This document shows, piece after piece, positions 5,489 to 61,196 of a stretch of DNA of 64,000 nt. Under the pieces are notes generated by a model. It did not search any database and was not told where the DNA came from. It saw only the letters and a program-made list of their open reading frames with translations. Origin of the DNA: Trypanosoma brucei (lineage: Eukaryota); contig CM000207.1 of NCBI GenBank assembly GCA_000002445.1, positions 448,001-512,000 on the forward strand, in the 5' to 3' direction. The position numbers and the translations under genes are program-made. Numbering within the stretch: the first letter of the stretch is position 1; each line of letters starts with the position of its first letter.

Positions 5489-5520
5489 TGCGTCGTCGGA
5501 GCTCTTTCGCAAAACGGTTA

Positions 5521-5566
5521 CCTTCGTCGTGTGGAAGAGAACCAAAATAAAATCGAGCAAAAAAAA
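5521..5566 (-). promoter_or_regulatory. Polypyrimidine tract upstream of the ARF-like GTPase start
   Basis: The minus strand reads ttttttttgctcgattttattttggttctcttcc followed by an AG, ~30 nt before the ATG at 5488. The translated tract explains the spurious FFLLDFILVLF N-terminal extension of the track ORF. Confidence 0.4.

Positions 5567-9931: not shown

Positions 9932-9968
<37 letters not shown>
9932..9968. repeat. (TA)n microsatellite, ~18 units
   Basis: Direct read in the intergenic region upstream of the giant repeat gene. Confidence 0.9.
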
Positions 9969-13600: not shown

Positions 13601-16600
13601 CTGTGGGAATAGCTGCATCCTCTTTGCTCAGTTCCTTTGCATCATCATCAGCTGTAGGAATAGCTACATCCTCTTTGCTCAGTTCCTTTGCATCATCATC
13701 GGCTGTGGGAATAGCTGCATCCTCTTTGCTCAGTTCCTTTGCATCATCATCAGCTGTGGGAATGGCTGCATCCTCTTTGCTCAGTTCCTTTGCATCATCA
13801 TCGGCTGTGGGAATAGCTGCATCCTCTTTGCTCAGTTCCTTTGCATCATCATCAGCTGTGGGAATAGCTGCATCCTCTTTGCTCAGTTCCTTTGCATCAT
13901 CATCAGCTGTGGGAATGGCTGCATCCTCTTTGCTCAGTTCCTTTGCATCATCATCAGCTGTAGGAATAGCTGCATCCTCTTTGCTCAGTTCCTTTGCATC
14001 ATCATCGGCTGTGGGAATAGCTGCATCCTCTTTGCTCAGTTCCTTTGCATCAACATCAGCTGTGGGAATGGCTGCATCCTCTTTGCTCAGTTCCTTTGCA
14101 TCATCATCGGCTGTGGGAATAGCTGCATCCTCTTTGCTCAGTTCCTTTGCATCAACATCAGCTGTGGGAATGGCTGCATCCTCTTTGCTCAGTTCCTTTG
14201 CATCATCATCAGCTGTGGGAATAGCTGCATCCTCTTTGCTCAGTTCCTTTGCATCATCATCAGCTGTAGGAATAGCTACATCCTCTTTGCTCAGTTCCTT
14301 TGCATCATCATCGGCTGTGGGAATAGCTGCATCCTCTTTGCTCAGTTCCTTTGCATCAACATCAGCTGTGGGAATAGCTGCATCCTCTTTGCTCAGTTCC
14401 TTTGCATCATCATCAGCTGTGGGAATAGCTGCATCCTGTTTGCTCAGTTCCTTTGCATCATCATCGGCTGTGGGAATAGCTGCATCCTGTTTGCTCAGTT
14501 CCTTTGCATTATCATCAGCTGTGGGAATAGCTGCATCCTCTTTGCTCAGTTCCTTTGCATCAACATCAGCTGTGGGAATAGCTGCATCCTCTTTGCTCAG
14601 TTCCTTTGCATCAACATCAGCTGTGGGAATAGCTGCATCCTCTTTGCTCAGTTCCTTTGCATCAACATCAGCTGTGGGAATGGCTGCATCCTCTTTGCTC
14701 AGTTCCTTTGCATCAACATCAGCTGTGGGAATAGCTGCATCCTCTTTGCTCAGTTTCTTTGCATCAACATCAGCTGTGGGAATAGCTGCATCCTCTTTGC
14801 TCAGTTTCTTTGCATCAACATCAGCTGTGGGAATAGCTGCATCCTCTTTGCTCAGTTCCTTTGCATCATCATCAGCTGTGGGAATAGCTGCATCCTCTTT
14901 GCTCAGTTCCTTTGCATCATCATCAGCTGTGGGAATAGCTGCATCCTCTTTGCCCAGTTCCTTTGCATCATCATCAGCTGTGGGAATAGCTGCATCCTGT
15001 TTGCTCAGTTCCTTTGCATTATCATCAGCTGTGGGAATAGCTGCATCCTCTTTGCTCAGTTCCTTTGCATCATCATCAGCTGTGGGAATAGCTGCATCCT
15101 CTTTGCTCAGTTCCTTTGCATCAACATCAGCTGTGGGAATAGCTGCATCCTCTTTGCTCAGTTTCTTTGCATCAACATCAGCTGTGGGAATAGCTGCATC
15201 CTCTTTGCTCAGTTCCTTTGCATCAACATCAGCTGTGGGAATAGCTGCATCCTCTTTGCTCAGTTCCTTTGCATCAACATCAGCTGTGGGAATAGCTGCA
15301 TCCTCTTTGCTCAGTTCCTTTGCATCAACATCAGCTGTGGGAATAGCTGCATCCTCTTTGCTCAGTTCCTTTGCATCAACATCAGCTGTGGGAATAGCTG
15401 CATCCTCTTTGCTCAGTTTCTTTGCATCAACATCAGCTGTGGGAATGGCTGCATCCTCTTTGCTCAGTTCCTTTGCATCAACATCAGCTGTGGGAATGGC
15501 TGCATCCTCTTTGCTCAGTTCCTTTGCATCAACATCAGCTGTGGGAATAGCTGCATCCTCTTTGCTCAGTTTCTTTGCATCAACATCAGCTGTAGGAATA
15601 GCTGCATCCTCTTTGCTCAGTTCCTTTGCATCATCATCAGCTGTGGGAATAGCTGCATCCTCTTTGCTCAGTTCCTTTGCATCATCATCAGCTGTGGGAA
15701 TAGCTGCATCCTGTTTGCTCAGTTCCTTTGCATCATCATCAGCTGTGGGAATGGCTGCATCCTGTTTGCTCAGTTCCTTTGCATCAACATCAGCTGTGGG
15801 AATAGCTACATCCTCTTTGCTCAGTTCCTTTGCATCATCATCAGCTGTGGGAATAGCTACATCCTCTTTGCTCAGTTCCTTTGCATCATCATCAGCTGTG
15901 GGAATAGCTACATCCTCTTTGCTCAGTTCCTTTGCATCATCATCAGCTGTGGGAATAGCTGCATCCTCTTTGCTCAGTTCCTTTGCATCAACATCAGCTG
16001 TGGGAATAGCTACATCCTCTTTGCTCAGTTCCTTTGCATCATCATCAGCTGTGGGAATAGCTGCATCCTCTTTGCTCAGTTCCTTTGCATCAACATCAGC
16101 TGTGGGAATAGCTGCATCCTCTTTGCTCAGTTCCTTTGCATCAACATCAGCTGTGGGAATAGCTGCATCCTCTTTGCTCAGTTCCTTTGCATCATCATCG
16201 GCTGTGGGAATAGCTACATCCTCTTTGCTCAGTTCCTTTGCATCATCATCAGCTGTGGGAATGGCTGCATCCTGTTTGCTCAGTTCCTTTGCATCAACAT
16301 CAGCTGTGGGAATAGCTACATCCTCTTTGCTCAGTTCCTTTGCATCATCATCAGCTGTGGGAATAGCTACATCCTCTTTGCTCAGTTCCTTTGCATCATC
16401 ATCGGCTGTGGGAATAGCTGCATCCTGTTTGCTCAGTTCCTTTGCATCATCATCGGCTGTGGGAATAGCTGCATCCTGTTTGCTCAGTTCCTTTGCATCG
16501 TGAGCTGCATCATTATTTGTTTTATCGTTATCACTTCCTTTATTTTTCTGTTGGAGTTCAGTGATTGTGATGTTGTCAATGACCTTTTGCGCGTTGTCAG

Positions 16601-29522: not shown

Positions 29523-32500
29523 TTACTCCGACATTATCTTTTCGTACAGAAAAGCAAACATATCCGCCATTCCCTCATCCACGTCGGGTTTCGCTTGACC
29601 GAACTGTTTGTTCCCCACTTCCTGGCAATCATATGTCTCAGTGAGTTGGGCGGGACGTTGCTCTTCACCTACGCGATGCATAAACGACAAACGGGGTCCT
29701 TCAGACTCAAGTTTGCTACTCAATTTTCCTGACCCCGCTGTGCTGTGAACTGTTAAGGCTCCGTTATCCGCACATGTGAGCTCGGTTGATACACACACCG
29801 CTGAGCACGTACGCCGATGTGGGCAACCAATCGCGGAATGGCGGGGTGCACTACTGGCGCGACCATCGCCAGTTTGTTCCTTCTGGGTTTTTGGATGGCT
29901 ACCATCCCCTCCGGTGGCATGAGAACCAACGGAGGGTGTATGGACAGGCCCATCACAAATTAATGAGGATGCTGAGGTGGACAGCCGAGAAACCACTCGG
30001 GGAAGCTGGCGGTTGCTCCTTTCTTTTTCCTCCTCCCCTTCCCCCAAATTGGCGTCTGCAACCATGGAATGTGGAACAAGCGACAGCTTCTTCGCTAGTA
30101 GCGCCCCTTGGCGCATCCACGGATGGGTGAGCGCCTCACAAAGCTCAAACCGCGTGCGTGGCTGGGGATCTAGGAGAGATTGAACGAATGAGATGGCCAC
30201 TGTGCTGACATTTTCCCAGCGGCTGCTGTTGCACGCCGGCACGCAAAGCTTCTGTTGCCACATCGTCGCCCGAGATGTTCCATTAAAGGGGAAACAGCCA
30301 CTCAAGAGCACATACGTCACAATGCCAACCGCATAAGCATCCAACTTGCGGGCCTCACAGACAGCTATGGTCTTCTGCTTCCACCCCCTCTGCAAAATCC
30401 ACTGCAATATTTCTGGTGGCAAATACCTTTCAGTACCACAAGGTGTGAACGATAAAAGTGTATCATCGTGGTGATGTGAATCATCCTCCAGCAGTGAGGA
30501 AGGTGCAGGACACTCATGATCAGTAAGCGGAACCGACGCACTTCCCTGCGCTCCGGCGATAGCGCGCGTAGGCATGGCACCCTTCGGCTGTCGGTCCTGC
30601 TGTGTCCCATCCTCTTCATCACCCACCAAAAGGGTGGTTGGAATTTTTGCTGTTGAATCACTTGTCGACCCCGCTCGACTGAGGACTGGTGGAGTGTTAT
30701 TTGAAATTGCAACCGGGACCGTTACCCTGTGAGACAACCCCTCGTCGTCTTCTGATTCTTCTTGTTTGCTCTCAAGTGTCCCTTCTCCACCAGCGACATC
30801 ATCCACGCGCCTCGGTTCTTTTTCCACCTTACCACATGAGGCGAAGGATAACTCAGGGAGATTGAAACCCCCACCAACTGCCACAGTGCCACTGCTCTTG
30901 GGACTTCCTTTTCGGATTATGGGCTTCCGTGTGTCGCTCCCCTCTTCCATCTTCTTTTCTACTGAGGGATTTCCAGTGCCGCTACACCTTGACATATGCA
31001 TTGACAGGCCAAAATCGATGAGGGTTACCTTCAACAGCCGTTCCATCTCATCGGTAGCAGTAGAAACGTTGACGGAAACTGGCTCCCACCACCTATAAGA
31101 CGAAGACCGTGCTTTACTGTCCGCAACTTCGGTGCGGTTGCCGCGTTCACACCCATCTCCCGTTCTCTTGGTGTGCTCCTTCTCGGTCCTTCCAGACACA
31201 TCCTCCTCGTTGTGAGTGTGACTTCGGTTTTTCGACCTCGGAGAAGACTCCACACTACCACCCGTTTCCATAGCTTTCCGGATAATACTTATTGATTGAT
31301 CGACTCGGGAAAGCAGTATATTCTCCAGTTTTATGTCTCGATGCAGGACCTCCTTGACATTGTGCAGGTAATTGACCGCTTCCACAAGCTGATAAACTAT
31401 TAACGAAGCATGCGCCTCATTAAGTGGTCCATGCGCGCGAACGTAGCGCAGGGCATCGATATTACCTTTACCCATGTCCATAACAATTGCAAACTCCTCT
31501 GGAGTTTGCAGTGTTCCAATAAGGTGGGAGCATCCGCTGTGCTCGAGAGCAGCGAGGATTGATACCTCTTCTGCGATTCTTTGCAGTTGTCGCCACTCTG
31601 CGTCACTTTCACTTTGTCGAGGATATTTGCCACACGCGCAATGTTGCGCGGAAGTGCTCGAAACCACGTGCCTCCCCATGTCACTTTCCCCCCTTCTCGC
31701 TGCATGGGGCGCAACCTTGTAACGGCCGCCTCGCTCCGAACGCACACGAGGAATTACTTTTATCGCCACAAAGGAATCACTTGGTCCAGCACTACGGTTG
31801 CAGTTGTTTGCCCCACATGAGCGGCCACCGGTTCCTTGAAACAGGGGAACGGCCCGATACACTCGCGAAAAAGCACCACAGTCAATGTAGTCCCTACCTG
31901 GATGAAAAGCATAGAGATCCTGTAAAGAGTCCACTATCTTGCATTCGTGCAGTGCCGATAATACCCCGGCTCCGTTCTTGTTGCTAACAGAGCCGGTCAC
32001 GCCACGGTCTCCGTCCTTGTGCGTGGTGACCGACTTGCTACAAGGACAAATGCCATCATTACACACAGTTTCGCAGTTAGTATAAGTTAAAGCAGGAACG
32101 GAAGCCGCTCGTTGAGGAGCCCGTCCTCTTCTTGTCCGGGACTTTGTCCTCCGGTAGTCCATTTGAGCTCCATAGAAATCCCTTTCGCTGGCAAGCAGAT
32201 ATTGAATTTGTACTGGCCCGTCCACAGACCTCAATGTTTTCTGCACTTCGCTGCAGCATAGGGCACTGGGTTCATCAACCGTGAACACAAGGACCTGAGG
32301 ATGATGAAGTGCAATAGCCGTGCGGCGTGGATGCGCCCGTCTACCATAACAAAGATGTGTGACAGCGGACTCCATAGCGGAATTGGCCCGTCGTCTACGC
32401 AATGAGGGTTGTTGTATTGACTTCGGTATCGGTGACTCACTCGCTTCTGCTGTTGCTGCGTTTTGTGGGAACAAAAGTTCCGCTACCTCCTTTTCCCTTC

Positions 32501-32600
32501 TCCGGCGCCATGGTCTCAGGCGATCCACGACAACAGCTTCTACAGCTGGAAGTGCGTGGAGTGCAGGAAGCATATCATAGAAACCGCTATCCCGTGCCAT
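29523..32600 (-). CDS. Serine/threonine protein kinase with large inserts (~1025 aa)
   Basis: The track start is a TTG at 32669. The first in-frame ATG at 32600-32598 (MARDSGFYDMLP) is preceded by a polyY tract. Gly-loop CGAFSRVYRA, VAIK FVAIKVI, HRD LHRDIKLENILL, DFG DFGLS, APE-like CGTERYLPPEIL, subdomain IX DAYAVGIVTYVLLSGCFPF. Confidence 0.8.
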   Translation of the reverse strand: MARDSGFYDMLPALHALPAVEAVVVDRLRPWRRRREKEVAELLFPQNAATAEASESPIPKSIQQPSLRRRRANSAMESAVTHLCYGRRAHPRRTAIALHHPQVLVFTVDEPSALCCSEVQKTLRSVDGPVQIQYLLASERDFYGAQMDYRRTKSRTRRGRAPQRAASVPALTYTNCETVCNDGICPCSKSVTTHKDGDRGVTGSVSNKNGAGVLSALHECKIVDSLQDLYAFHPGRDYIDCGAFSRVYRAVPLFQGTGGRSCGANNCNRSAGPSDSFVAIKVIPRVRSERGGRYKVAPHAARRGESDMGRHVVSSTSAQHCACGKYPRQSESDAEWRQLQRIAEEVSILAALEHSGCSHLIGTLQTPEEFAIVMDMGKGNIDALRYVRAHGPLNEAHASLIVYQLVEAVNYLHNVKEVLHRDIKLENILLSRVDQSISIIRKAMETGGSVESSPRSKNRSHTHNEEDVSGRTEKEHTKRTGDGCERGNRTEVADSKARSSSYRWWEPVSVNVSTATDEMERLLKVTLIDFGLSMHMSRCSGTGNPSVEKKMEEGSDTRKPIIRKGSPKSSGTVAVGGGFNLPELSFASCGKVEKEPRRVDDVAGGEGTLESKQEESEDDEGLSHRVTVPVAISNNTPPVLSRAGSTSDSTAKIPTTLLVGDEEDGTQQDRQPKGAMPTRAIAGAQGSASVPLTDHECPAPSSLLEDDSHHHDDTLLSFTPCGTERYLPPEILQWILQRGWKQKTIAVCEARKLDAYAVGIVTYVLLSGCFPFNGTSRATMWQQKLCVPACNSSRWENVSTVAISFVQSLLDPQPRTRFELCEALTHPWMRQGALLAKKLSLVPHSMVADANLGEGEEEKERSNRQLPRVVSRLSTSASSLICDGPVHTPSVGSHATGGDGSHPKTQKEQTGDGRASSAPRHSAIGCPHRRTCSAVCVSTELTCADNGALTVHSTAGSGKLSSKLESEGPRLSFMHRVGEEQRPAQLTETYDCQEVGNKQFGQAKPDVDEGMADMFAFLYEKIMSE

Positions 32601-33458
32601 ATCTAACTCCTTCCCCCAGTCGAAAAACAAAAAAAAAAAAAGAAAAAAATCAATCCCCGTACTGCACAAACTAAACTTTCGTACTGTATTTCTGTGCCCA
32701 CTTACTTGTCCCTAACGGAAGTACTGATTTTCGTTTTCGAGAATCCTTTTTCTAACAGTTCTTCTTCAAGCTCCTTTCCCCTGTATTTTTTGTTGTTGCG
32801 AAGGGAGGGGAGCTGAGGGAACAAAACAAAGAGAAGTACCAAAAGAGTCTTTGCATTTGGGAGAGCAAATATCCCTTTTCCTGCAGGTAGGGGTAGACGT
32901 AGAGGAAATACAAATACCAACAGTGATGTGGGTCCTCCAACACAAACTTGAAGCACAAAAAGGCACCCACGCAATTCCAAATCCATTGTATTCTTGGTAG
33001 GGAGTTGTCCAAGAAGTTCAAAAACATACACAAAAACACACGCCAGCAAACGTAAGACGAACAAGGAGGGAAATGGGGTTCACACCTTGGTTTGTTTTTT
33101 TTTCTTTTACCCAACGTCCCCACCATTCGTCTTTTCCCCCTTGTCATAATCACATGCCAATGACTGCGGCCACCCCTATATCTTCCTTTCGTCCATATTT
33201 GCACTCACCCTTTAGTTTATTTCTTTCTCCCTTAGAGTCATGTCTCCTTCCTCTCTCTCTCTCTTTCTCTCTTCTTTTCTTTTCTTTTTTTTTCTTACTC
33301 CCCTCTTCCACCCATTCAACTCTCCGCCATGCCTCGTCCCGTGCACACCTTTTTTGCGGTCCACTTCCTTTTTCCCCTTCAACAAATCCGCCACCCGCCA
33401 CCGTTCCACTTATTTCACCTCTTATTTTTTTTTCTTCCTTTTACCCAAAAAATGTTTA

Positions 33459-34691: not shown

Positions 34692-34726
<35 letters not shown>
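34692..34726. repeat. (TA)n microsatellite, ~17 units
   Basis: Direct read; intergenic. Confidence 0.9.
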
Positions 34727-36755: not shown

Positions 36756-38990
36756 TCACGCCTTCGTGTATAAGGCCAGTGGTAACCGCCGTAACAAACG
36801 CTGAAGCAGCAGCTCGTGGAGCATCACGCGCCGAAGTGCCGTCACATCCTCTTGCGTGAAGGTTAAAGCGACGCCGTTGACAACACACCACGCCACGTGA
36901 CACACAAAAACACCACAATCAGACGAATTCTGCTGTTGAGGTGCGACATCAAACCAACCATTTGTCGCGTCGTAACCGCAGCAGCTTCCAACTGGTGTGG
37001 CTACAGTCAACCTTCGTTGATCAGCAGCACCATTCACACGCGGTTGATAGCCTCTTTCAGCCTTAACGGTATGATTGCTATTAGCATCGTCACTATCACA
37101 CAAAATACGCCGCGCTTCCTCAAATGTGTGGTGAAGCGCCCCAAGCACAGTACTTCCCTGTGGCACAGGGGCATTTCCGTACAGCAAACTGTCGTAATAT
37201 GTCCATCTGTTTCGTTCCCAATCAAGTACGGCAAGTGTCCAGTGCGACTGCCACAAGTTGACAGGCACAAGCACAATGCGGGTGGTACCCGATTGCAAGA
37301 TATGCCGACGCCTTTTCAGCCAACGGAGGACACCACTGTTTTGCTCAAGAGTTGGGAATCCGCCCGACGAGGGGTTCAAACCGGCATTTCCTATTCGCAT
37401 CTCTTGCTGTACTTTGGCATAGAAATGTGTCCCCATAGACACCGCAGCTTCACAGCCAGCCCTCACATTATACTCGTCACAAATTAGTCCCAGGTAGGCG
37501 TTGATAATTTGGTCGTTTAACCACACGCCTGGTGCCAATGTCGACAACTGCCGGTACGTTATTGCTATTCCGCTCTTGAGTGACACAGCAACCCTCTCCT
37601 GCTCACCAGAGTTCTGAGATCGCGAGCTGTCCCATTTGCCCGTCGTTAGAGTTGTCTCAAAAACAGCTCTATCATCCTCGTCCTCGGCAAGCTCACATAT
37701 ATATGCAGCCTTTCCACATTCGATGTGGCGACGTATGCCATGTGAAAGCGCCTTTGTCGCAACTAAACTTTTCGAAGTTGGTTCCACTTTGGCGACAAGA
37801 GCGCGCATGACATACGACTCCAGAGCTCGTTGAGCCATATGATTAAAGAAATTTATGCACTTTCTTGCCTCTACCTCAACAGCACTCCTCACAAAGTCGC
37901 CCAGTACGATCTCATAAATGTAACGCACCTTCCTGTCGACATCTGTGTCAACGGCGCGCAAAAGAGTTTCGTTACTGTCGTTAAGAGCGCTGTACTGCTG
38001 CGGCCAGCGTGGGTAAAGGTGTTGGCGTTTTTCCTCTGCATTCATTGTGACCGAAGTGATGCTGCCTCCCTTGCTGTCACCACGGAGTTTCCCTTCGACG
38101 TCACGAAGGCAAGCGGCAAGTTTATCACCCCTTTTGTCTCGGATGCACCGACCAACATCCGCGCCGTAGTTTTCGGCAGCATCACGGCACTGCCGCTTAA
38201 AGCTCGCCGCGGCTGCGCTCAAATGTTGTTCTCTCACCTGTTTAGGCCTTTTCGGTGCCTCCTTTCCCGATGTGGGAAGAAGTTGATTGTTAGTGCGCTC
38301 CATTATAAACCGGTCCCCACGGTCGTGCACCGGCTCACACATCAGAGACATTGGCTTTTCCCACTCAGAGAGGTACGGTGATGTGAACCGTTGCCGCACA
38401 TGACCAACAGAGTGGGTGCTCAGCTGCTCAACGGAATAGTGCTCGCTGCCCTCTATTTGTGCATCGGGAAGGCGATATGTTGCCCTCGCAGCAGGCTGTG
38501 AGATCTTCAGCTTTTGCCATTGCCGTTCCTTTTCACTCTCTGTGGTGATTTCCTGGGAATTATTGGGTGTAGTCCACGCAGCATCGCGTTCCAGTGGCGA
38601 TAGTGAGTCGTCTGCCACGCTCATCGAGAGCGGAGTGTCCCGTTTATCCTCTGACAAGATGCACCGGAGCAAGCTTTCCATTCCTTTTGCGATAACACTC
38701 GTTCCCATATGCCTGCTACTTTTTCCTTTCAGTCGTTTATGGGCACAAAGATGCCCAGATGGATATACATCACCAGCAGCGTCGTTAGCAGTGGCACGGG
38801 ATTGCTGCTGAGGTGGGGGCGAAGGAGTAACGCTTCTGCTGCCCGCTTCATTTGCCGGTCGCTGGCCCAGCGGAGGCGTGCAGGGATTCGTTCCAGCCTC
38901 ACACGTCTCTTCTGAAGTTGTCGGGGCCCTGCGTGAGCGGTGTAAAGATGGCAATATCCATCCAGCGGCATTTAAAAGGATATCTGCCAT
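36756..38990 (-). CDS. Ulp1/SENP-family SUMO-specific cysteine protease (C48 peptidase)
   Basis: ATG verified at 38990-38988. C-terminal catalytic domain with the His/Asp/Cys arrangement LVPVNLWQSHWTLAVLDWERNRWTYYDSL ... QQNSSDCGVFVCHVAW (H-x-D ... Q-x-x-x-DCG). Long non-conserved N-terminal region. Confidence 0.8.
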   Translation of the reverse strand: MADILLNAAGWILPSLHRSRRAPTTSEETCEAGTNPCTPPLGQRPANEAGSRSVTPSPPPQQQSRATANDAAGDVYPSGHLCAHKRLKGKSSRHMGTSVIAKGMESLLRCILSEDKRDTPLSMSVADDSLSPLERDAAWTTPNNSQEITTESEKERQWQKLKISQPAARATYRLPDAQIEGSEHYSVEQLSTHSVGHVRQRFTSPYLSEWEKPMSLMCEPVHDRGDRFIMERTNNQLLPTSGKEAPKRPKQVREQHLSAAAASFKRQCRDAAENYGADVGRCIRDKRGDKLAACLRDVEGKLRGDSKGGSITSVTMNAEEKRQHLYPRWPQQYSALNDSNETLLRAVDTDVDRKVRYIYEIVLGDFVRSAVEVEARKCINFFNHMAQRALESYVMRALVAKVEPTSKSLVATKALSHGIRRHIECGKAAYICELAEDEDDRAVFETTLTTGKWDSSRSQNSGEQERVAVSLKSGIAITYRQLSTLAPGVWLNDQIINAYLGLICDEYNVRAGCEAAVSMGTHFYAKVQQEMRIGNAGLNPSSGGFPTLEQNSGVLRWLKRRRHILQSGTTRIVLVPVNLWQSHWTLAVLDWERNRWTYYDSLLYGNAPVPQGSTVLGALHHTFEEARRILCDSDDANSNHTVKAERGYQPRVNGAADQRRLTVATPVGSCCGYDATNGWFDVAPQQQNSSDCGVFVCHVAWCVVNGVALTFTQEDVTALRRVMLHELLLQRLLRRLPLALYTKA

Positions 38991-39850: not shown

Positions 39851-39879
<29 letters not shown>
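39851..39879. repeat. (TA)n microsatellite, ~14 units
   Basis: Direct read; intergenic upstream of the SENP gene. Confidence 0.9.
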
Positions 39880-41275: not shown

Positions 41276-43615
41276 TCAATTGACAACTCCTGTGCATTCT
41301 TCAACGCTTGGCAATAGCGGCAAACCACAGGCAAGTGCCGCAGCCTCAAAGTCTGTTTCTCTCCATGGACTTTCAATTTGTCCACTCCGCACCGCCTCAG
41401 CTGCCCAATGACCCAGCAGAAAATACCTGTGCTGGAGCAGCTCCACCACAGTAGGCCGCTTTGCTGGCACGCGCGAGAGGCAGCGGCGCAGCATTCCGCG
41501 ACACTCTTCTGATAGTTGCTGGGGAAGTGGAACGTCGTGAAAGTTGTCCTCAACGTAGTTTTTGATGTTATTCATCCACATACGGCTCAGTTCAGCACCC
41601 GCCAATCGTTTGCGCGACTGACCTGTGTTCCCTGGATACAGATCCTCATACAGAGCACCGCGCGGCGTCGCAAGCTCAATAAATGTCATCGCAAACGCGT
41701 AGACGTCGCTGGCAGGCGTCAGTACTCCACTTCCCATGCTTTCAGGCGCAAGATGCGGCACACTACCCAGAAGGTGTGACACGTCTTCCTTTTCGCTCAA
41801 CAAAACTGATCGTATACGACCATAGTGACCCAACTTGACGAGAATTTTGCTCTTGCGATGGTACACATCAGCGGAGGAGTGGATACTGCCATCTCCCGTT
41901 CTTTGTTGACCACAAACAAGAACAGGTGTGGGGTGCCCTCTAGAACTGAGCAGACCCCTCGCTTCCACTTCTCCTCCACTCCTGATGTATGCTGTGGTAC
42001 TATTCTCTGCAATGCTACCACACTCGGCGAAGGACAGAGCATGTGGAAAGGCATGTGTACTGCTAACAGAACCATCTTTAGCAACCTTCCCCCCTTTAAA
42101 CAACCCGTTGGTGCCGAAATTAGTGCCTTCCACACTGGAATTGGAGGATGGAATAGAAACCACCTCACCGTCAATGTATGAGCAATCCTGGATGAGGTGC
42201 TTCACTTCATCGTCTACCCAATGACTGCAGCCGCTATCGCAGTCATCACACTCTGTTCGAGCACGATTTGCCACAATGCTGACAGCCCTTTCCCCCCGCC
42301 GTAGTATTGGATCCGTTCGCTGGCTCCCATACGGCTCATTTTTTGCACCACCGACAGACCTGTGGTGGACTGTGGGCGTCCTCTGCCTGAAGCTACGGCC
42401 AGTCGCCCTCTCCGCAGCGTTTCGTCCTTCGCAGTGCCCGGCACTTCCTTCTGCACGCGATGCGCTAGGTTCGGTGCCAGTGAGGAAGTGGGTGGCATCG
42501 GTAGTGGTGCTTATCAGCGCACGGGAAACTGCGCGTGATGACGCCTTATCGAGACGCCCAGCGGGAATGTCAGAAATGTATGCCGGGTACGCAGTACCGT
42601 ACACGCGGCTAATCGGGTTACTAATGAATATATTCTTGGCACATAGGTCACCGTGAGGTATGTCTGCTTCATGAAGGACAGCCAATGCAAGGAGCACCTC
42701 ACGCATATATGCTCGCACCGTGAGTTCATGCATATAGGCTTTACCAAATTTATCTGGAACCTCTTTCAGTAGAACATCACGAAGCGTCCCGTACTTCGCG
42801 TACTCCATGTAAACACGTAGCTTAGCATTCTTTTGAGGCAGATCGACGCTAAGTGCAGGGTTTTTCAACAAAACAAGAGGATCAGCACAAAAAGGCAACG
42901 TCCTTGATGCCGCTTCAGCGCAACTAGTAGATACACCACCGCTTCCGTTATCCGAGTTATCTGGTACTCGCTCAACCAAAAACACCTTCAGCAACCGGTT
43001 GTTGGATTTCAAGTGACAGAGGTGTTCTGCTTCCTTTACCAGCTGCTCAGAAGTGGCCCAACTGAGATTTTTCATGGAATACTCTTTGCATGCAATAAGA
43101 TATTTCATGTGATGATCACTCCCTTCATCAGTACGGTCCCCCTTTTCTCCCGCACCCTTCCACAAACTTCTGGGCACCGTACACACCGTCATATCTGCGA
43201 GTGTTACATCGCTAAACATGCCCCGTCCTACCCGCCGTTCCAAAGCCCTCATGTGATACATTGTTAGCCTATTTGGCTCTCTTACCACCGCAACGGTCAA
43301 CTCACTTGTTTTCCTCATTAACCCATTACCATTTTGTATTCCCTTTTCATCCCCAGCTCTCGGATGGATCGAGCTGCGATGCTTCTCAATACGGGCTGGT
43401 TCATCAATCGGGGCGCTGTAGCGTCGGCAGCCTTCTTCCAGTTGCTTGTTGTACCACTCACACAAGGAAGAGGAAGGAGAGTAAGGAAGCACAACACTGT
43501 CATCCTCTTCTTCCTCTAATCGCCTCACACCCTTATGCGCCCCGCTCCTCCTGCAGCAAACCCCAACAGCCCACCCTCCATCATGGCTCTTCGTGGTGGA
43601 AGTGTTGCACCCCAT
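41276..43615 (-). CDS. Atypical protein kinase (780 aa) with an N-terminal dual-acylation signal MGC
   Basis: The track start is a GTG (43867), and its extension contains a translated (TA)n microsatellite (YIYIYIYI). ATG verified at 43615-43613 (MGCNTSTTKSHDG). Kinase motifs IACKEY (VAIK), YMEYAKYGTLRD, HGDLCAKNIFI (HGD not HRD), ~280-aa insert before KLGHYG (in the DFG position), HLAPESM (APE), DVYAFAMTFIELAT. Confidence 0.7.
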   Translation of the reverse strand: MGCNTSTTKSHDGGWAVGVCCRRSGAHKGVRRLEEEEDDSVVLPYSPSSSLCEWYNKQLEEGCRRYSAPIDEPARIEKHRSSIHPRAGDEKGIQNGNGLMRKTSELTVAVVREPNRLTMYHMRALERRVGRGMFSDVTLADMTVCTVPRSLWKGAGEKGDRTDEGSDHHMKYLIACKEYSMKNLSWATSEQLVKEAEHLCHLKSNNRLLKVFLVERVPDNSDNGSGGVSTSCAEAASRTLPFCADPLVLLKNPALSVDLPQKNAKLRVYMEYAKYGTLRDVLLKEVPDKFGKAYMHELTVRAYMREVLLALAVLHEADIPHGDLCAKNIFISNPISRVYGTAYPAYISDIPAGRLDKASSRAVSRALISTTTDATHFLTGTEPSASRAEGSAGHCEGRNAAERATGRSFRQRTPTVHHRSVGGAKNEPYGSQRTDPILRRGERAVSIVANRARTECDDCDSGCSHWVDDEVKHLIQDCSYIDGEVVSIPSSNSSVEGTNFGTNGLFKGGKVAKDGSVSSTHAFPHALSFAECGSIAENSTTAYIRSGGEVEARGLLSSRGHPTPVLVCGQQRTGDGSIHSSADVYHRKSKILVKLGHYGRIRSVLLSEKEDVSHLLGSVPHLAPESMGSGVLTPASDVYAFAMTFIELATPRGALYEDLYPGNTGQSRKRLAGAELSRMWMNNIKNYVEDNFHDVPLPQQLSEECRGMLRRCLSRVPAKRPTVVELLQHRYFLLGHWAAEAVRSGQIESPWRETDFEAAALACGLPLLPSVEECTGVVN

Positions 43616-43637
43616 CACGATCAACCTACCTTCTCTA

Positions 43638-43640
<3 letters not shown>

Positions 43641-43675
<35 letters not shown>

Positions 43676-43690
43676 CGTGTGCGTGTTTAT
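43641..43690. repeat. (AT)15 followed by (GT/GC)n, 26 nt upstream of the kinase ATG
   Basis: Direct read. Lies in the presumptive 5' UTR / splice-acceptor region of the 41276-43615 kinase. Confidence 0.9.
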
Positions 43691-44565
43691 ATTTATGTAA
43701 AAACCTTTTTTTTCCTGGTACCTTCGTGGGGCCGCAGAGTGGTCACAGAACAATCCGCTCCCTTCTGCCCACTCGCGTATGGTTGAAAGGGGTTCACGGT
43801 TACTGCCTCGCGGTATTCCTTCCGCGCCGGGGAATTTTTTTTTTCTGTTGGGTAAGTTCCCAACCACGACTTTAATAGTTTACCTCACGTGGCCCCTTCT
43901 GCGACTCCGAAGTTACTTTTAATTGGGCAACCAGGTACGAGGCAAGAGATTAAATCAAGAAAAGAGTGGAAATGGTAAGAAAATTACGTAAATGAGCGGA
44001 GACTGGTAATATTTTTAAGCACCATCGAGCCCAGGGCCAAAACGAATAAAACCGTAACTGAGGTGAAGAAGAAAATCCAGCAAATATTTGGATGAATGAG
44101 AACTTTCTTTGTCCTCTCCTCCACTGCCCCAAGCGTCCTGCCCGTACAAATTACATGTCGAGATGCACACCGGACAAACAGGGTATAAAAGAATGGAAAT
44201 TAAAGCATTCAGGTATGTGAAAATAAAATAATGAAAAGTAAAAAGGTGAGAAATACTCTAACAGTGCAAAGGAGCTTCCACCACAAAGAAGTCTGTAAAT
44301 GCATCTGAATGCCTAAATGATGCAAGGAAAGCAACGTAAGTAAATGTTAATAATAATAATAAACAAGGAAACGAATTTCACACACAAAAAAAAATAACAG
44401 AAAATCAATAGAACAAATGACACGACTAGTGGTGACGTGCGATAGTCAGTGCTTTAGCCAAGAAAGGGATAAGTGTGACCACGAATGCAACCGTGTCGCA
44501 TCATATCTCGCCCTCACTTCATGTACCACATTTTCTATGTTAAGTGTTGCTACAAGCTACTGCAT

Positions 44566-58181: not shown

Positions 58182-61100
58182 TCACCACCTACGGTGGGCA
58201 CTGCATCGATAGACTGAGGAAGAACACTGAGACACGGCACGAGCACGCGGCCGTGATTGAAGAATTAAGGCACCCTCCGTTCTGAAACATATATCTGACA
58301 CAAGTTTGTTGACTCGAGCCCGGATTTCCGTACCGTCATCAAGCGTCTCCCTCATAAATTGAGCACATTCACAAGGTGATGGGACTGGGCTTACACACAG
58401 CCACCGTGTGATACGATTTGGTGGGATTGCCCAATGCTGTGCACATTCTTTTATCTCCTCCTCTTCCTTGTGAAGAAGCCTAAACTCTGCATCGTCAAGT
58501 GCTTCCAGCCACTTGTCCATACACCCCTCCAGTTTGGTTGTTGAAGGTCCCACATCCCCAATATGGTTATCATAAGGAACATCTTCACAATCGGTAGTTG
58601 TCGCATCACCGTGCTGAGAGCGACGATGCGCATCCACGAGGTTCGCCCGCCAGTGCATGAAAACGGTATGAACATCACCTGTGATTGTTGTAATGCGATT
58701 CGGCGGAGCGGGAGACGGTATGGCCAACGGCACAGCAGAGACATACTCAACAATAAAACACCGCTCCCCGGCACCGGCGAAATAGTTGTGGCTCCAGCTC
58801 ACCCACGGTAAGGGACTCAACGTGTTGCCACACGCCGTCGCGGTATCGGTTTCCCCGTCAAGGCGATCCTCCAACCACGTGTTGACAGCCGAAACCAACA
58901 TCTCCATTGCGCAGTGTGCAGCTTCCTCCTCGTCCAGAATGTCCTCGTCGTCCTCGATAAGAGAGGGCAGGTAGACCTTATCGACGCGTGCGCTAGCACT
59001 CAGTCTTAATTGTGAATGGATGAAGAAATTGGTGTTCAGGCCGCGTGCTTCTAGCTCTTCGAGCAGTGGCCCGTTGTCGCCAACAGTCTGGAAAGCAATG
59101 TCATATTCTTGCATCTGTAAGAAAACCCGCTCTACAAAACACAAGGTCTTCGGCATGTACATCGGTAGCTTCCGATGGCTTTCATGGTCAGTAGTGCTTT
59201 GCACAGAAACGATGGGATCGACTGGTGTGTCGTACGCACGCAAGTTGCCTAGCGCTGTGAGGATATGTTCAAGAAGTGAAGTGGTTTGGGCGTTCCCCCG
59301 CCGCTCCAGCATATCTCCAGAAACATCGACGCTCCACCAGTGAACGACGTTATGGGGGAGGTAACGCCCATTATCTATTGGTAGAACACTTGGTGTCATG
59401 GTGCGACCTAGTAACGCCGCCTCTTCCTCATCTTCCTCCTCTTCCTCATCGCTGTCACCCAAGCACACGTCCAACAGCACATCTTCTTTTCCCTCGACAA
59501 TGCGCTTAACAGAGGCTTCCACCGACTTCTCCCACCATGGCATGCGTAAAGAAAAAATGGGGGACTCAAGAAGCAATTTCTTGGCAGTAGGTCGTTCCGC
59601 CGGGTCTACTGCCATCATCCTGTCAATGCAATGCAAGAACTCTGCCGAAAGATTTCGTGCCCGCAGTGCCCTTGCCATTAGCTGAACACTTGGTGTGAGA
59701 ACCCATGGAGGCCACTGAGTTGTGCTTGTCACTCCCTCCTTTGTTTCATCCCCACTCAAGGAGGTATACCGGGTGTACTGTGTGCCACTGATGCGGTCGG
59801 TAGCGATGATGTTACCATCCTCTTTGTCCACCCCTACGCTGTGCTCACCACAAATACTCTCCTCGTGGCACCCGCGTCGAGCAGCAAGCTCCCGTATAGA
59901 GATTTGAAGCGCCTTGTCGTCTACAAGTGGAATCACCGCCAGTGTTGCCAGCGGTGGGTAGTCACCTCGCGCAACCCAAAGACGTGCTGCAACTGTGGCA
60001 TTACTTTCGGACTCCGTTGGTGACATAAAGGATGGAATCATACCGTTAAAAGTAACTGTCAACATGCCCTCATCCATTCCTAGACCCCCTCCAGTTAGAA
60101 ACACGTAGAAAAGCGCAGCTGCACTCCAAATATCAGACGCGTACGAGTACGGGCACCGGTGCCGATATCCCCAATATCGCGCAATTTCCGGCGGTAAGTA
60201 GGCGCAAGATCCAACCACTGTACGCTCAGTTTGGGAGTCCGAATCTGTTACCTTAGTTGCAATACCGAAGTCAGCAAGGATCAACTCGACGTTGCTTTCC
60301 CAGTTGGTGGGGGAGACCCTGTTGCGGAGGAGTATGTTGGATGGTTTGATGTCTCTGTGCAGTAACCCGTTTCCGTGCAAGCACGCGAGCCCGCTTAGTA
60401 TCTGTGACATCCAGCATACGAGATGTTCCTCAGCTATGTAAGAGCCATACAGTTTGAGCAGTTCCCCGAAGGTGCCGCCGATCCCCACCTCAACGACCAT
60501 GTGCACGGAAGTCGGTGCTGCCACTGTGCGAGGAGATGATGTTGGCATACAGTCGGTACCGTATAATGGATCGTGTTCCACAAAAACACCATAAAAACGT
60601 TCGAGCCGGGGATGTCGAGGAAGCGTGGCAATGACTTGGGCTTCACGTAAAAGGTTGCACAACATGGGGCAGTGGTTTAACACTGCACAACCAACACCAC
60701 TTGGTGTCAGGTGCAATTCATTCATTGCACCTTCACGACCGCAAACACTCGATAGCAGCATGATCGGAGAAGGAAGTTGCGTGAAACTTTTCGCAGCAAA
60801 GAAACGAGTGGGCCGTAGACGGCTCTGCAACACGGTCACAGAGCTAAAGCTCCCGGTGCCTAACTTCAAAACAGTGTTAAAAAGGCAATCGATGGAATAA
60901 CTGCTGTTGAAGATGATACCGTCAATGTCGTCTCCCTCACCCCAATCACCAGTGGCTTCCCCACACGAGGCACAAGCGTGTTGTCCAGACCGAAAACCAC
61001 TGCTTCCCCCGGATAGCAGGCGATCCACGGGGTACTCGTGCAGTGACGATTTTGAACCCGAGCCCAATAGTGGAAAACGCAACCCCCCATTGGGTCCAAC

Positions 61101-61196
61101 CGTTCGCTTTACGAGATCATCACACCAGGAGAGGGGGACACCATCAAGAATATGCGAGGGAGGGAACAAAATGTTGACAGTCAGATACTCCTCCAT
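58182..61196 (-). CDS. Serine/threonine protein kinase (1004 aa) with a long C-terminal extension
   Basis: ATG verified at 61196-61194. Gly-loop LGTGSFSSV, FFAAKSF (AxK), HRD LLHRDIKPSNILL, DFG LADFGIATKV, APE CAYLPPEIA, subdomain IX SDIWSAAALFYVFLTGG. Acidic DSDEEEEEDEEE in the C-terminal region. Confidence 0.85.
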   Translation of the reverse strand: MEEYLTVNILFPPSHILDGVPLSWCDDLVKRTVGPNGGLRFPLLGSGSKSSLHEYPVDRLLSGGSSGFRSGQHACASCGEATGDWGEGDDIDGIIFNSSYSIDCLFNTVLKLGTGSFSSVTVLQSRLRPTRFFAAKSFTQLPSPIMLLSSVCGREGAMNELHLTPSGVGCAVLNHCPMLCNLLREAQVIATLPRHPRLERFYGVFVEHDPLYGTDCMPTSSPRTVAAPTSVHMVVEVGIGGTFGELLKLYGSYIAEEHLVCWMSQILSGLACLHGNGLLHRDIKPSNILLRNRVSPTNWESNVELILADFGIATKVTDSDSQTERTVVGSCAYLPPEIARYWGYRHRCPYSYASDIWSAAALFYVFLTGGGLGMDEGMLTVTFNGMIPSFMSPTESESNATVAARLWVARGDYPPLATLAVIPLVDDKALQISIRELAARRGCHEESICGEHSVGVDKEDGNIIATDRISGTQYTRYTSLSGDETKEGVTSTTQWPPWVLTPSVQLMARALRARNLSAEFLHCIDRMMAVDPAERPTAKKLLLESPIFSLRMPWWEKSVEASVKRIVEGKEDVLLDVCLGDSDEEEEEDEEEAALLGRTMTPSVLPIDNGRYLPHNVVHWWSVDVSGDMLERRGNAQTTSLLEHILTALGNLRAYDTPVDPIVSVQSTTDHESHRKLPMYMPKTLCFVERVFLQMQEYDIAFQTVGDNGPLLEELEARGLNTNFFIHSQLRLSASARVDKVYLPSLIEDDEDILDEEEAAHCAMEMLVSAVNTWLEDRLDGETDTATACGNTLSPLPWVSWSHNYFAGAGERCFIVEYVSAVPLAIPSPAPPNRITTITGDVHTVFMHWRANLVDAHRRSQHGDATTTDCEDVPYDNHIGDVGPSTTKLEGCMDKWLEALDDAEFRLLHKEEEEIKECAQHWAIPPNRITRWLCVSPVPSPCECAQFMRETLDDGTEIRARVNKLVSDICFRTEGALILQSRPRARAVSQCSSSVYRCSAHRRW

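What the first reader, a model, noticed from the sequence alone, without database searches (positions are those of the whole stretch)
41276..43867. Atypical kinase: MGC dual-acylation start, HGD catalytic loop, DFG replaced, ~280-aa insert in the activation segment, (TA)15 in the 5' leader
The maximal ORF starts at a GTG and reads through a (TA)n microsatellite. The credible start is MGCNTS, a myristoylation plus palmitoylation consensus that predicts membrane or flagellar targeting. The kinase core has the VAIK lysine and an APE motif. HRD is HGD, however, and the position expected for DFG reads KLGHYG after an unusually long (~280 aa) low-complexity insert. It is therefore either a non-canonical active kinase or a pseudokinase scaffold. 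The polymorphic-looking (AT)15(GT)n tract 26 nt upstream of the ATG could modulate trans-splice site choice or UTR length between strains.
Basis: partly seen in the sequence, partly recalled or inferred. Interest (0 to 1): 0.5.

Follow-up and report, generated by a model that had tools for sequence, protein, structure and literature searches.

The report
Known trypanosome pseudokinase gene Tb927.9.2240

Summary
A 779-aa ORF on the minus strand (ATG 43615, stop 41276-41278) starts MGCNTS. It keeps the VAIK lysine (K177), the αC glutamate, the catalytic aspartate (HGD 321-323) and APE (623-625). It reads KLGHYG where DFG belongs. A (TA)15 array lies 24 nt upstream of the ATG.

The protein is 100% identical to T. 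brucei TREU927 XP_803536.1. Published RNAi primers for Tb927.9.2240 match the gene exactly. That gene is already classed "Pseudo-Orphan" in the T. brucei kinome, and its Leishmania mexicana orthologue LmxM.26.2060 is classed the same way and is dispensable in promastigotes.

- The homologue in free-living Bodo saltans has canonical HRD and DFG, and its DFG aligns with HYG. This settles the placement and suggests activity was lost in the trypanosomatid lineage.
- The ~255-aa, mostly disordered insert lies between β7 and β8, before the DFG position. It is not inside the activation segment, and Bodo has it too.
- The microsatellite varies among T. brucei subspecies, is absent in other species, and is one of seven such arrays in the window. 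Nothing suggests a function.

Dual acylation is predicted from the motif only. The only localisation on record used an N-terminal tag, which masks that signal.

The parts
41276..43615 (-). Coding sequence of Tb927.9.2240 (Tb09.160.0990; XP_803536.1; UniProt Q38FT8), 779 aa plus the stop codon at 41276-41278
   Evidence: ORF listed. 100% identity and coverage to the T. brucei TREU927 'protein kinase, putative'. RNAi primers TLO65/66 for Tb927.9.2240 match 42179-42198(-) and 41783-41802(+) exactly. TrypTag gives the old and new identifiers.
43595..43615 (-). N-terminus MGCNTST: Gly2 / Cys3 / Ser6 consensus for N-myristoylation plus S-palmitoylation (predicted only)
   Evidence: A PS00008-like pattern matches T. 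brucei and 12/14 homologues. MG is present in 14/14 and Cys3 in 13/14. There is no experimental acylation data for this protein.
43205..43228 (-). Glycine-rich loop GRGMFSDV (residues 130-137)
   Evidence: Alignment A2. AF2 places strands at 116-131 and 135-148.
43085..43087 (-). Lys177 of LIACK, the VAIK-equivalent β3 lysine, invariant in 14/14 homologues
42632..42655 (-). Catalytic loop HGDLCAKN (321-328). The HRD arginine is lost, the D+2 lysine is replaced by Cys, and a Lys sits at D+4. D323 is invariant.
   Evidence: OSR1 aligns HRDVKAGN to this stretch. The Bodo homologue has HRDVKPQN here. TYK2 JH2 'HGNVCGRN' aligns here.
42557..42604 (-). Conserved, ordered segment after β7, VYGTAYPAYISDIPAG (338-353). 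It contains D349, the rejected alternative DFG candidate.
   Evidence: Conserved in all trypanosomatids; P344 and P351 are invariant. pLDDT is 71-84. D349 is Asn in P0014 and aligns with a non-DFG stretch of Bodo. The construct test favours KLGHYG.
41840..42622 (-). Insert between β7 (329-331) and β8 (593-595), residues ~332-592. Residues 372-466 and 485-588 are predicted disordered.
   Evidence: AF2 pLDDT and secondary structure. The corresponding length is 189-474 residues in homologues, Bodo included. Identity to other Trypanosoma species is lowest here, 15-37%.
42164..42238 (-). Conserved island inside the insert (residues ~460-484, SGCSHWVDDEVKHLIQDCSYIDGE)
   Evidence: W466, D468, E470, V471, Y480 and D482 are invariant among the four Trypanosoma sequences. 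Identity is 68% to T. congolense and 48% to T. vivax. AF2 predicts helices at 436-455 and 464-477 with low-to-moderate confidence.
41819..41836 (-). KLGHYG (594-599): β8 plus the degenerate DFG, with Asp replaced by His597
   Evidence: Pfam Pkinase resumes at residue 593, profile position 137. BLASTP aligns KILVKLGHYGRIRS with Bodo KTLIKLSDFGSARW. All 11 trypanosomatid sequences have His or Cys at this position.
41741..41749 (-). APE motif (residues 623-625); Pro-Glu is invariant
41363..41425 (-). Family-specific C-terminal tail YFLLGHW...G.IESPW (731-751)
   Evidence: Y731, F732 and W737 are invariant in 14/14 and the tail is shared with Bodo.
43640..43686 (-). Compound microsatellite in the leader. 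On the coding strand it reads (CA/CG)n at 43671-43686, then (TA)15.5 at 43640-43670, ending 24 nt before the ATG.
   Evidence: TRF. (TA)15 in TREU927 and T. b. gambiense, where the CA tract is longer; (TA)9 in T. equiperdum. Absent upstream of the T. vivax gene, and only an imperfect (CA)n lies upstream of the P0004 gene.
43616..43867 (-). Upstream extension of the maximal GTG-initiated ORF. This is not coding; it is leader or intergenic sequence.
   Evidence: The extension is translated microsatellite. Homologues start at MGC. The same artefact appears in the automatic gene call for P0004.

Best explanation
The locus is the annotated T. brucei chromosome 9 gene Tb927.9.2240. It lies in a minus-strand polycistronic unit between a 383-aa ORF with no Pfam match and a Ulp1/SENP-type protease gene. 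It encodes a kinetoplastid-specific protein with a complete bilobal protein-kinase fold that is interrupted by three inserts: β2-β3, β4-β5, and a ~255-aa mostly disordered one between β7 and β8.

Shown here: the fold retains the β3 lysine, the αC glutamate, the catalytic-loop aspartate and, in Trypanosoma, the asparagine. It has lost the HRD arginine, the D+2 lysine (now Cys, with Lys at D+4) and the Mg-binding DFG aspartate (now His). The same substitutions occur in every trypanosomatid sequence examined. The homologue from free-living Bodo saltans keeps canonical HRD, D-x-K-x-x-N and DFG, and shares the same insert position, the same MGC start and the same C-terminal tail.

Inferred: an active, N-acylated ancestral kinase became a pseudokinase at or near the base of the trypanosomatids. 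It most likely does not catalyse ordinary Mg-ATP phosphotransfer. It probably acts as a scaffold or allosteric partner, anchored to the cytoplasmic face of a membrane by N-myristoylation of Gly2 and palmitoylation of Cys3. The well-conserved C-lobe, the C-terminal tail and the conserved island in the disordered insert would serve as interaction surfaces.

The (TA)15 array is an ordinary polymorphic intergenic microsatellite that happens to lie just upstream of the start codon.
For: Identity: 100% match to XP_803536.1; exact primer matches to Tb927.9.2240; TrypTag identifiers and primers.

Kinase fold: Pkinase scores 76.4 bits against a cut-off of 31.7. The AF2 model has confident lobes and a disordered insert. 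Foldseek finds generic kinase matches with target-normalised TM-scores of 0.6-0.76.

Motif placement: OSR1 alignment, family alignment and motif table, pairwise BLASTP to Bodo, and the construct test giving 89.4 against 78.0 bits.

Conservation and selection: the family was found across kinetoplastids in a profile search of 1.84 billion representatives, with named members from T. congolense, T. vivax, T. conorhini, Novymonas, L. tarentolae, Porcisia, Phytomonas and Bodo. Synteny with the Ulp1 protease gene is kept in T. vivax. The C-lobe is 54-69% identical within Trypanosoma, against 15-37% for the insert.

Prior classification: 'Pseudo-Orphan' in Jones et al. 2014 (PMC3894213). The L. mexicana orthologue LmxM.26.2060 is listed under 'Pseudo-Orphans' and is dispensable (PMC7902614). 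Orthology was shown by translating its ORF primers to CIAKGM and TYRRFM, both exact matches in the L. tarentolae protein.

Acylation motif.

Microsatellite ordinariness.
Against: No biochemical data on nucleotide binding or activity were found, so 'pseudokinase' rests on sequence only. K177, E195, D323 and N328 are retained, which leaves room for nucleotide binding or non-canonical catalysis.

Acylation is unproven. The protein's N-terminus (GCNTS) is absent from the held text of the supplement that lists the 2007 high-confidence predicted TriTryp N-myristoylome. The L. donovani orthologue was scored 'no/no' by predictors and was not significantly enriched by YnMyr.

The only localisation is weak cytoplasm, obtained with an N-terminal tag; C-terminal tagging was attempted with no cell line recorded.

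Fitness data conflict. Jones et al.'s Table S1 lists a Day-3 bloodstream-form loss of fitness in the Alsford RIT-seq screen, but no effect in their own RNAi lines (Alamar ratios 1.04 and 1.00; both clones were puromycin-resistant; I have not checked what that status implies for these lines).

Orthology of the Bodo protein, as opposed to paralogy, is inferred from shared architecture. It was not tested by a reciprocal search.
Confidence: 0.68

Rival explanations
1. It is a non-canonical but active kinase, or at least an ATP-binding switch. Under this reading catalysis or nucleotide binding survives loss of the DFG aspartate. Precedents recalled from memory are CASK, which has GFG, and JAK2 JH2, which has a very similar HGNVCAKN catalytic loop.
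For: K177 and D323 are invariant in 14/14 homologues, E195 is near-invariant, and N328 is kept in all Trypanosoma species. The position of the lost Asp is always His or Cys, both potential metal ligands, and Cys at D+2 is invariant in trypanosomatids. The insert-deleted core has the TYK2 JH2-JH1 chain as its best PDB sequence hit, and the JH2 catalytic loop HGNVCGRN aligns with HGDLCAKN.
Against: Three catalytic-site positions changed together. In Leishmaniinae the HRD histidine and the Mg-binding asparagine are also lost (QYDLCAK[SAER]), which looks like progressive decay of the active site rather than a rebuilt one. Both published kinomes treat it as a pseudokinase. The resemblance to JH2 is short, and its E-value (4e-9) is within one to two orders of magnitude of those for ordinary kinases.
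Confidence: 0.2
2. The true DFG equivalent is D349 in YISDIPAG, 21 residues after N328. Under this reading the long insert really would sit inside the activation segment and the kinase could be metal-competent.
For: D349 and P351 are invariant among Trypanosoma and most Leishmaniinae, and the spacing from the catalytic loop is only ~8 residues longer than usual. The segment is ordered in the AF2 model (pLDDT 71-84).
Against: Bodo and two other homologues carry a bona fide DFG after the insert, and it aligns with HYG. Their segment homologous to YISDIP is not a DFG. D349 is Asn in P0014. AF2 places a β-strand at 593-595 immediately before HYG. Pfam scores the KLGHYG-containing construct 11 bits higher.
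Confidence: 0.04
3. The (TA)15/(CA)n microsatellite is a functional regulatory element. Under this reading its length variation tunes trans-splice site choice or translation of this gene.
For: It lies 24 nt from the ATG. It probably falls within the 5' UTR, because the nearest polypyrimidine tracts and following AGs lie at ~43966-43900. It is polymorphic among T. brucei subspecies. As RNA it can form a (UA)n hairpin (MFE -26.3 kcal/mol, z -3.45).
Against: It is not conserved upstream of the T. vivax gene or the P0004 gene. There are seven (TA)n>=8 arrays in this 64-kb window, four of them with 14-17 copies, at varied distances from genes. A self-complementary repeat folds trivially. No expression data link repeat length to output.
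Confidence: 0.06

Closest known systems
T. brucei kinome class 'Pseudo-Orphan' (Jones et al. 2014, PMC3894213) and L. mexicana 'Pseudo-Orphans' (Baker et al. 2021, PMC7902614)
   Same: This gene is itself an entry in the first list (Tb927.9.2240), and its orthologue LmxM.26.2060 is an entry in the second. Baker et al. list kinases that lack one or more of the conserved lysine and two aspartates, and this protein lacks the DFG aspartate.
   Different: Nothing differs in kind. In the papers I could search I did not find the Bodo comparison, the exact position of the insert or the conserved MGC start, but my access to the literature was partial.
Human PSKH2, and its active relative PSKH1
   Same: PSKH2 is an N-terminally acylated pseudokinase (Gly2 myristoylated, Cys3 predicted palmitoylated) derived from an active kinase lineage. 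An N-terminal tag blocks its myristoylation and sends it to the cytoplasm (PMC9988210). The same caveat applies to the TrypTag result for this gene.
   Different: PSKH2 lost the HRD aspartate (HRN) and keeps DFG; this protein is the reverse. PSKH2 is a CAMK relative without a large insert. The two share no specific sequence relationship.
JAK-family JH2 pseudokinase domains (TYK2, JAK2)
   Same: The catalytic loops are similar: HGN-V-C-x-[KR]-N in JH2 against HGD-L-C-A-K-N here, with the HRD arginine replaced by Gly, Cys at +2 and a basic residue at +4. Both have a degenerate DFG (DPG against HYG). The TYK2 alignment is; the JAK2 sequence is from memory.
   Different: JH2 keeps the DFG aspartate and lacks the catalytic aspartate; this protein is the opposite. 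There is no FERM-SH2-JH2-JH1 architecture, the organisms are unrelated, and the E-value is within one to two orders of magnitude of those for ordinary kinases. The resemblance is best read as convergence.
Dual-acylated kinetoplastid proteins: PPEF phosphatase (MGCSTSK / MGCDSSK), and calflagins and CAP5.5 from general knowledge
   Same: They share the MGCxxS(K) N-terminus that directs myristoylation plus palmitoylation and membrane association (PMC1885993).
   Different: Acylation of those proteins was shown experimentally. For Tb927.9.2240 it is only predicted, and the compartment (pellicular, flagellar or endomembrane) is unknown.
Kinases with very large intradomain inserts, such as Greatwall/MASTL and the PDGFR/KIT kinase-insert domain (general knowledge)
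   Same: The kinase fold is split by a long, disordered, poorly conserved insert.
   Different: Those inserts lie after DFG (subdomains VII-VIII) or between αD and αE. Here the insert is in the β7-β8 hairpin, before the DFG position. I could not name another kinase with an insert at this place.

Membership tests
Eukaryotic protein kinase superfamily (Pfam PF00069 Pkinase) | Profile match above the curated threshold | tested here: met
   76.4 bits against a cut-off of 31.7, in two stretches split by the insert. 89.4 bits as one stretch after deleting the insert.
Eukaryotic protein kinase superfamily (Pfam PF00069 Pkinase) | Bilobal kinase fold | tested here: met
   The AF2 model has confident N- and C-lobes. 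Foldseek against the PDB gives 1595 matches at E<=0.001, with target-normalised TM-scores of 0.6-0.76.
Catalytically competent protein kinase | β3 (VAIK) lysine and αC glutamate | tested here: met
   K177 is invariant. E195 is present in 13/14 homologues.
Catalytically competent protein kinase | HRD motif: catalytic Asp together with Arg, and Lys at D+2 in Ser/Thr kinases | tested here: not met
   D323 is present, but Arg is replaced by Gly and the D+2 Lys by Cys (HGDLCAKN). Bodo has HRDVKPQN.
Catalytically competent protein kinase | DFG aspartate (metal binding) | tested here: not met
   His597 occupies the Asp position. All 11 trypanosomatid sequences have His or Cys there.
Catalytically competent protein kinase | Measured phosphotransfer or ATP binding | not testable with these tools
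   No biochemical study of Tb927.9.2240 was found. The identifier does not occur in any searchable main text.
Pseudokinase, defined as a kinase fold lacking at least one of the Lys/Asp/Asp triad | Absence of at least one of the VAIK Lys, HRD Asp or DFG Asp | tested here: met
   The DFG Asp is absent. The gene is listed as 'Pseudo-Orphan' in PMC3894213, and its orthologue is under 'Pseudo-Orphans' in PMC7902614.
N-myristoylated and S-palmitoylated (dual-acylated) proteins | N-terminal Met-Gly, a small uncharged residue at position 3, Ser/Thr-type residue at position 6, and an adjacent Cys | tested here: met
   MGCNTST fits the PS00008-like pattern, as do 12/14 homologues.
N-myristoylated and S-palmitoylated (dual-acylated) proteins | Demonstrated lipid incorporation or acylation-dependent membrane localisation | tested here: inconclusive
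   There are no data for the T. brucei protein. The T. brucei lipidation proteomics paper (PMC4906374) is not held. The L. donovani orthologue LdBPK_262060 (MGCKSF) was scored 'no/no' by predictors and was not significantly enriched. TrypTag has only N-terminal tag data, weak cytoplasm.
JAK JH2-type pseudokinase domain | Specific homology to JH2 and a FERM-SH2-JH2-JH1 architecture | tested here: not met
   Only a short catalytic-loop resemblance was found, and the TYK2 E-value of 4e-9 is within one to two orders of magnitude of those for OSR1 and ASK1. No other domains were detected.

The most novel reading that the evidence does not exclude
The trypanosomatid lineage may not simply have inactivated this kinase but rebuilt its active site. 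The changes are an invariant Cys at D+2, a basic residue at D+4, and His or Cys in place of the DFG aspartate, with the β3 Lys and catalytic Asp strictly kept. Such a site might bind a different metal, or bind nucleotide without Mg. That would make a membrane-anchored nucleotide-, metal- or redox-sensing switch, or a weak non-canonical kinase, analogous to JAK2 JH2. The canonical Bodo protein would then be a natural 'before' state for reconstruction experiments.
Probability: 0.1. Interest if true: 0.5.

Novelty: already known. Interest (0 to 1): 0.15.

Why it matters
It matters little beyond trypanosomatid kinase biology. The gene is annotated, already classed as a pseudokinase, and has been through kinome-wide RNAi, knockout and tagging screens.

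Three modest points came out of this analysis:
- The Bodo saltans homologue is canonical. The DFG assignment is therefore secure, and the loss of catalytic residues can tentatively be dated to the trypanosomatid stem.
- The large insert is ancestral and lies in the β7-β8 hairpin, not in the activation segment.
- The only localisation on record used an N-terminal tag, which would destroy the conserved acylation signal. The protein's real compartment is therefore still unknown.

A C-terminal or internal tag would be a cheap, informative experiment.

Tried and rejected
- D349 (YISDIPAG) as an alternative DFG: rejected.
- Pseudogene or decaying ORF: rejected. The ORF is intact and conserved from Bodo to Leishmania, and the C-lobe is 54-69% identical within Trypanosoma. 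Comparisons within T. brucei are too close to give a useful dN/dS (4 synonymous against 3-5 non-synonymous codon differences).
- The GTG-initiated 863-aa ORF as the real product: rejected.
- A specific kinase group from structure: Foldseek gave only generic hits, with tyrosine kinases, ULK1 and ASK1 all scoring alike.
- Literature searches for Q38FT8, Tb927.9.2240 and Tb09.160.0990 in main texts: zero hits.
- The T. brucei lipidation proteomics paper: not held.
- The T. cruzi N-myristoylome paper: its main text does not list this kinase.
- The 2007 predicted N-myristoylome supplement: it does not contain GCNTS.
- The look-up of encoding contigs: nothing for the TREU927 protein or the T. congolense protein.
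- The two 416-aa ORFs at 1747-2997 and 4427-5677: suspected duplicates, but unrelated.
- Distances in the AF2 model (for example D349 to the active site): could not be measured, because the tools do not return coordinates.


Full report
**What is at the coordinates**

The longest ORF overlapping the finding is 41276..43867 on the minus strand. It is 863 aa, starts at GTG, and its first 84 codons translate a microsatellite (…THTHTYIYIYIYIYI…). The first ATG is at 43615 and opens MGCNTSTTK. No other ATG lies on the coding strand between 44025 and 43615. Tandem Repeats Finder reports a perfect (TA)15.5 at 43640-43670 and a short GTGTGC-type tract at 43671-43686. On the coding strand this reads (CA/CG)n(TA)15, followed by 24 nt and then the ATG. 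All ORFs of at least 250 aa in the window, apart from one that lies antisense within a longer minus-strand ORF, are on the minus strand. This fits a trypanosomatid polycistronic unit.

**Identity**

The 779-aa product is 100% identical over its full length to 'protein kinase, putative' of Trypanosoma brucei brucei TREU927 (XP_803536.1 / EAN76332.1 / UniProt Q38FT8), on a 3.06-Mb contig. The RNAi primers published for Tb927.9.2240 match 42179-42198(-) and 41783-41802(+) exactly. They are TLO65 and TLO66 from Jones et al. 2014, PMC3894213. TrypTag gives the former identifier, Tb09.160.0990, and its N-terminal tagging primers end at this same ATG. Two other kinase genes in the window were identified in the same way: Tb927.9.2140 (29523-32669) and Tb927.9.2350 (58182-61196).

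**Placement of the kinase motifs**

Pfam Pkinase matches at 76.4 bits (cut-off 31.7) in two stretches. The second stretch runs from residue 593 to 732 and corresponds to profile positions 137-263. phmmer against PDB sequences aligns OSR1 'HRDVKAGNILL' with 'HGDLCAKNIFI'.

A profile built from the four Trypanosoma sequences was searched against 1.84 billion representative proteins. It found the family throughout kinetoplastids. Named members come from T. congolense, T. vivax, T. conorhini, Novymonas, Leishmania tarentolae, Porcisia, Phytomonas and the free-living bodonid Bodo saltans.

In the 14-sequence alignment:
- K177 (LIACK), D323 and Pro-Glu of APE are invariant, and E195 is present in 13/14.
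- Bodo and two unnamed relatives read HRD[VL]K.QN and KL[ST]DFG.
- All 11 trypanosomatid sequences read [HQ]xDLC[AG][KR]x and have His or Cys where the DFG aspartate should be.

BLASTP aligns T. brucei KILVKLGHYGRIRS directly with Bodo KTLIKLSDFGSARW (E 3e-20).

I considered one alternative, D349 in the conserved YISDIPAG, 21 residues after N328. It fails on three counts:
- It aligns with a non-DFG stretch of Bodo and is Asn in one homologue.
- The AlphaFold2 model has a strand at 593-595 just before HYG.
- A construct that keeps KLGHYG scores 89.4 bits against Pkinase as one continuous match. A construct that keeps only YISDIPAG scores 78.0 bits.

**The insert**

There are 268 residues between N328 and H597, and 189-474 in the homologues, Bodo included. 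The insert therefore lies in the β7-β8 hairpin, between subdomains VIb and VII. It is not within the DFG-to-APE activation segment as the finding's title says, and it predates the loss of catalytic residues.

In the AF2 model (14-sequence alignment, mean pLDDT 56.5):
- The lobes are confident.
- Residues 332-371 are ordered (pLDDT 71-84).
- Residues 372-466 and 485-588 fall below 50.

The insert is enriched in Ser, Gly, Ala and Thr. It is the least conserved region, at 15-37% identity within Trypanosoma, against 54-69% for the C-lobe. It does contain a conserved island at about residues 460-484. Smaller low-confidence inserts lie between β2-β3 and β4-β5. Foldseek against the PDB returns only generic kinase matches.

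**What is already known**

- Jones et al. 2014 list Tb927.9.2240 as 'Pseudo-Orphan'. Their Table S1 records a Day-3 bloodstream-form loss of fitness in the Alsford RIT-seq screen. Their own RNAi lines showed no effect (Alamar ratios 1.04 and 1.00), and both clones were puromycin-resistant.
- The L. mexicana gene LmxM.26.2060 is the orthologue. Its diagnostic ORF primers translate to CIAKGM and TYRRFM, which are exact matches at positions 165 and 723 of the L. tarentolae family member. Baker et al. 2021 list it under 'Pseudo-Orphans', as dispensable in promastigotes and not tagged.
- TrypTag records 'cytoplasm[weak]' for the N-terminal tag. For the C-terminal tag it records only 'tagging attempted'.

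**Acylation**

MGCNTST fits the PROSITE-type N-myristoylation pattern and has an adjacent cysteine. Twelve of 14 homologues fit the pattern, MG is invariant, and Cys3 is present in 13/14. T. brucei PPEF (MGCSTSK) is a characterised dual-acylated precedent (PMC1885993).

There is no direct evidence for this protein:
- Its N-terminus is absent from the held text of the 2007 predicted N-myristoylome supplement.
- The T. brucei lipidation proteomics paper is not held.
- The L. donovani orthologue LdBPK_262060 has Phe at position 6. Two predictors scored it 'no', and it was not significantly enriched in YnMyr pull-downs.

An N-terminal tag blocks myristoylation, as was shown for the acylated pseudokinase PSKH2 (PMC9988210). 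The TrypTag result therefore says nothing about the native location.

**The microsatellite**

The array is (TA)15 in TREU927 and in T. b. gambiense DAL972, where the CA tract is longer. It is (TA)9 in T. equiperdum, next to an assembly gap. The flanks and the 24-nt spacer are nearly identical in all three. It is absent upstream of the T. vivax gene, and only an imperfect (CA)n lies upstream of the unnamed Trypanosoma-like gene P0004.

The window holds seven (TA)n arrays of at least 8 copies, four of them with 14-17 copies. The predicted (UA)n hairpin is the trivial result of self-complementarity. Nothing suggests a function. Polypyrimidine tracts at 44075-44065 and 43966-43957, with AG dinucleotides from 43917 onward, suggest that the array lies within the 5' UTR. 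This is inference; splice-site data were not available.

**Mechanism**

Shown here:
- The protein has a kinase fold, conserved under constraint, that lacks the DFG aspartate, the HRD arginine and the D+2 lysine.
- A canonical relative exists in Bodo with the same overall architecture.

Inferred:
- An active, N-acylated kinase was converted to a pseudokinase in the trypanosomatid stem.
- The protein now acts as a membrane-tethered scaffold or allosteric regulator.

The main rival, at about 0.2, is residual nucleotide binding or non-canonical catalysis. Three observations keep it alive: K177, E195, D323 and N328 are retained; His or Cys occupies the Asp position; and the catalytic loop resembles that of JAK JH2 domains (TYK2 alignment). 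Against it, Leishmaniinae have additionally lost the HRD histidine and the catalytic-loop asparagine.

**Verdict**

Novelty is low and interest is low.

Noticed in passing
window 29523-32669 (-) and 58182-61196 (-): The window holds two further protein-kinase genes. Exact matches to published RNAi primers identify them as Tb927.9.2140 and Tb927.9.2350, both classed 'Orphan' with no loss of fitness in Jones et al. 2014. Both have Pkinase hits that cover only part of the profile in the best stretch, which suggests that they too carry inserts.
   Followed up: partly
window 36756-38990 (-); L002 7345-8472: The gene immediately downstream encodes a Ulp1/SENP-type cysteine protease (Peptidase_C48). 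The same kinase-protease order is kept in T. vivax, which supports orthology of the locus.
   Followed up: partly
window 10698-19229 (-) and 12571-16503 (+): A 2843-aa ORF carries a 1310-aa ORF on the opposite strand inside it. This pattern usually reflects biased or repetitive composition rather than a second gene. I did not examine it.
   Followed up: no
window 9934-9967, 34694-34725, 39851-39878, 43640-43669 (also 28679, 34222, 55032): Long perfect (TA)14-17 arrays recur in the intergenic regions of this window. The array next to the kinase is the only one within 30 nt of a start codon.
   Followed up: yes
window 42632-42655 (-), residues 321-328: The catalytic loop HGDLCAKN closely resembles the HGNVC[AGT][KR]N loop of JAK-family JH2 pseudokinase domains. 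After the insert is deleted, the TYK2 JH2-JH1 chain is the best PDB sequence hit. This is probably convergence.
   Followed up: partly
window 42164-42238 (-), residues ~460-484; Leishmaniinae homologues P0010-P0013: A conserved island lies inside the otherwise disordered insert (W.DDEVK......Y.D.E). Leishmaniinae have a different conserved motif in the same region (…PFPSPHDG…). These may be docking or regulatory motifs.
   Followed up: no
L001 104-2776 (Logan SRR16767846 contig); L005 ~1320-1330: The automatic gene call for homologue P0004 starts 66 codons upstream of its conserved MGC and reads through leader repeats. This is the same artefact as the GTG ORF in this window. Separately, the T. 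equiperdum assembly has a run of N exactly at the microsatellite.
   Followed up: yes
TrypTag record for Tb927.9.2240 (PMC9981465, supplementary file 2): C-terminal tagging is recorded only as 'tagging attempted', while the N-terminal line gave weak cytoplasmic signal. For a protein with a conserved MGC start, the informative experiment is therefore still missing.
   Followed up: yes
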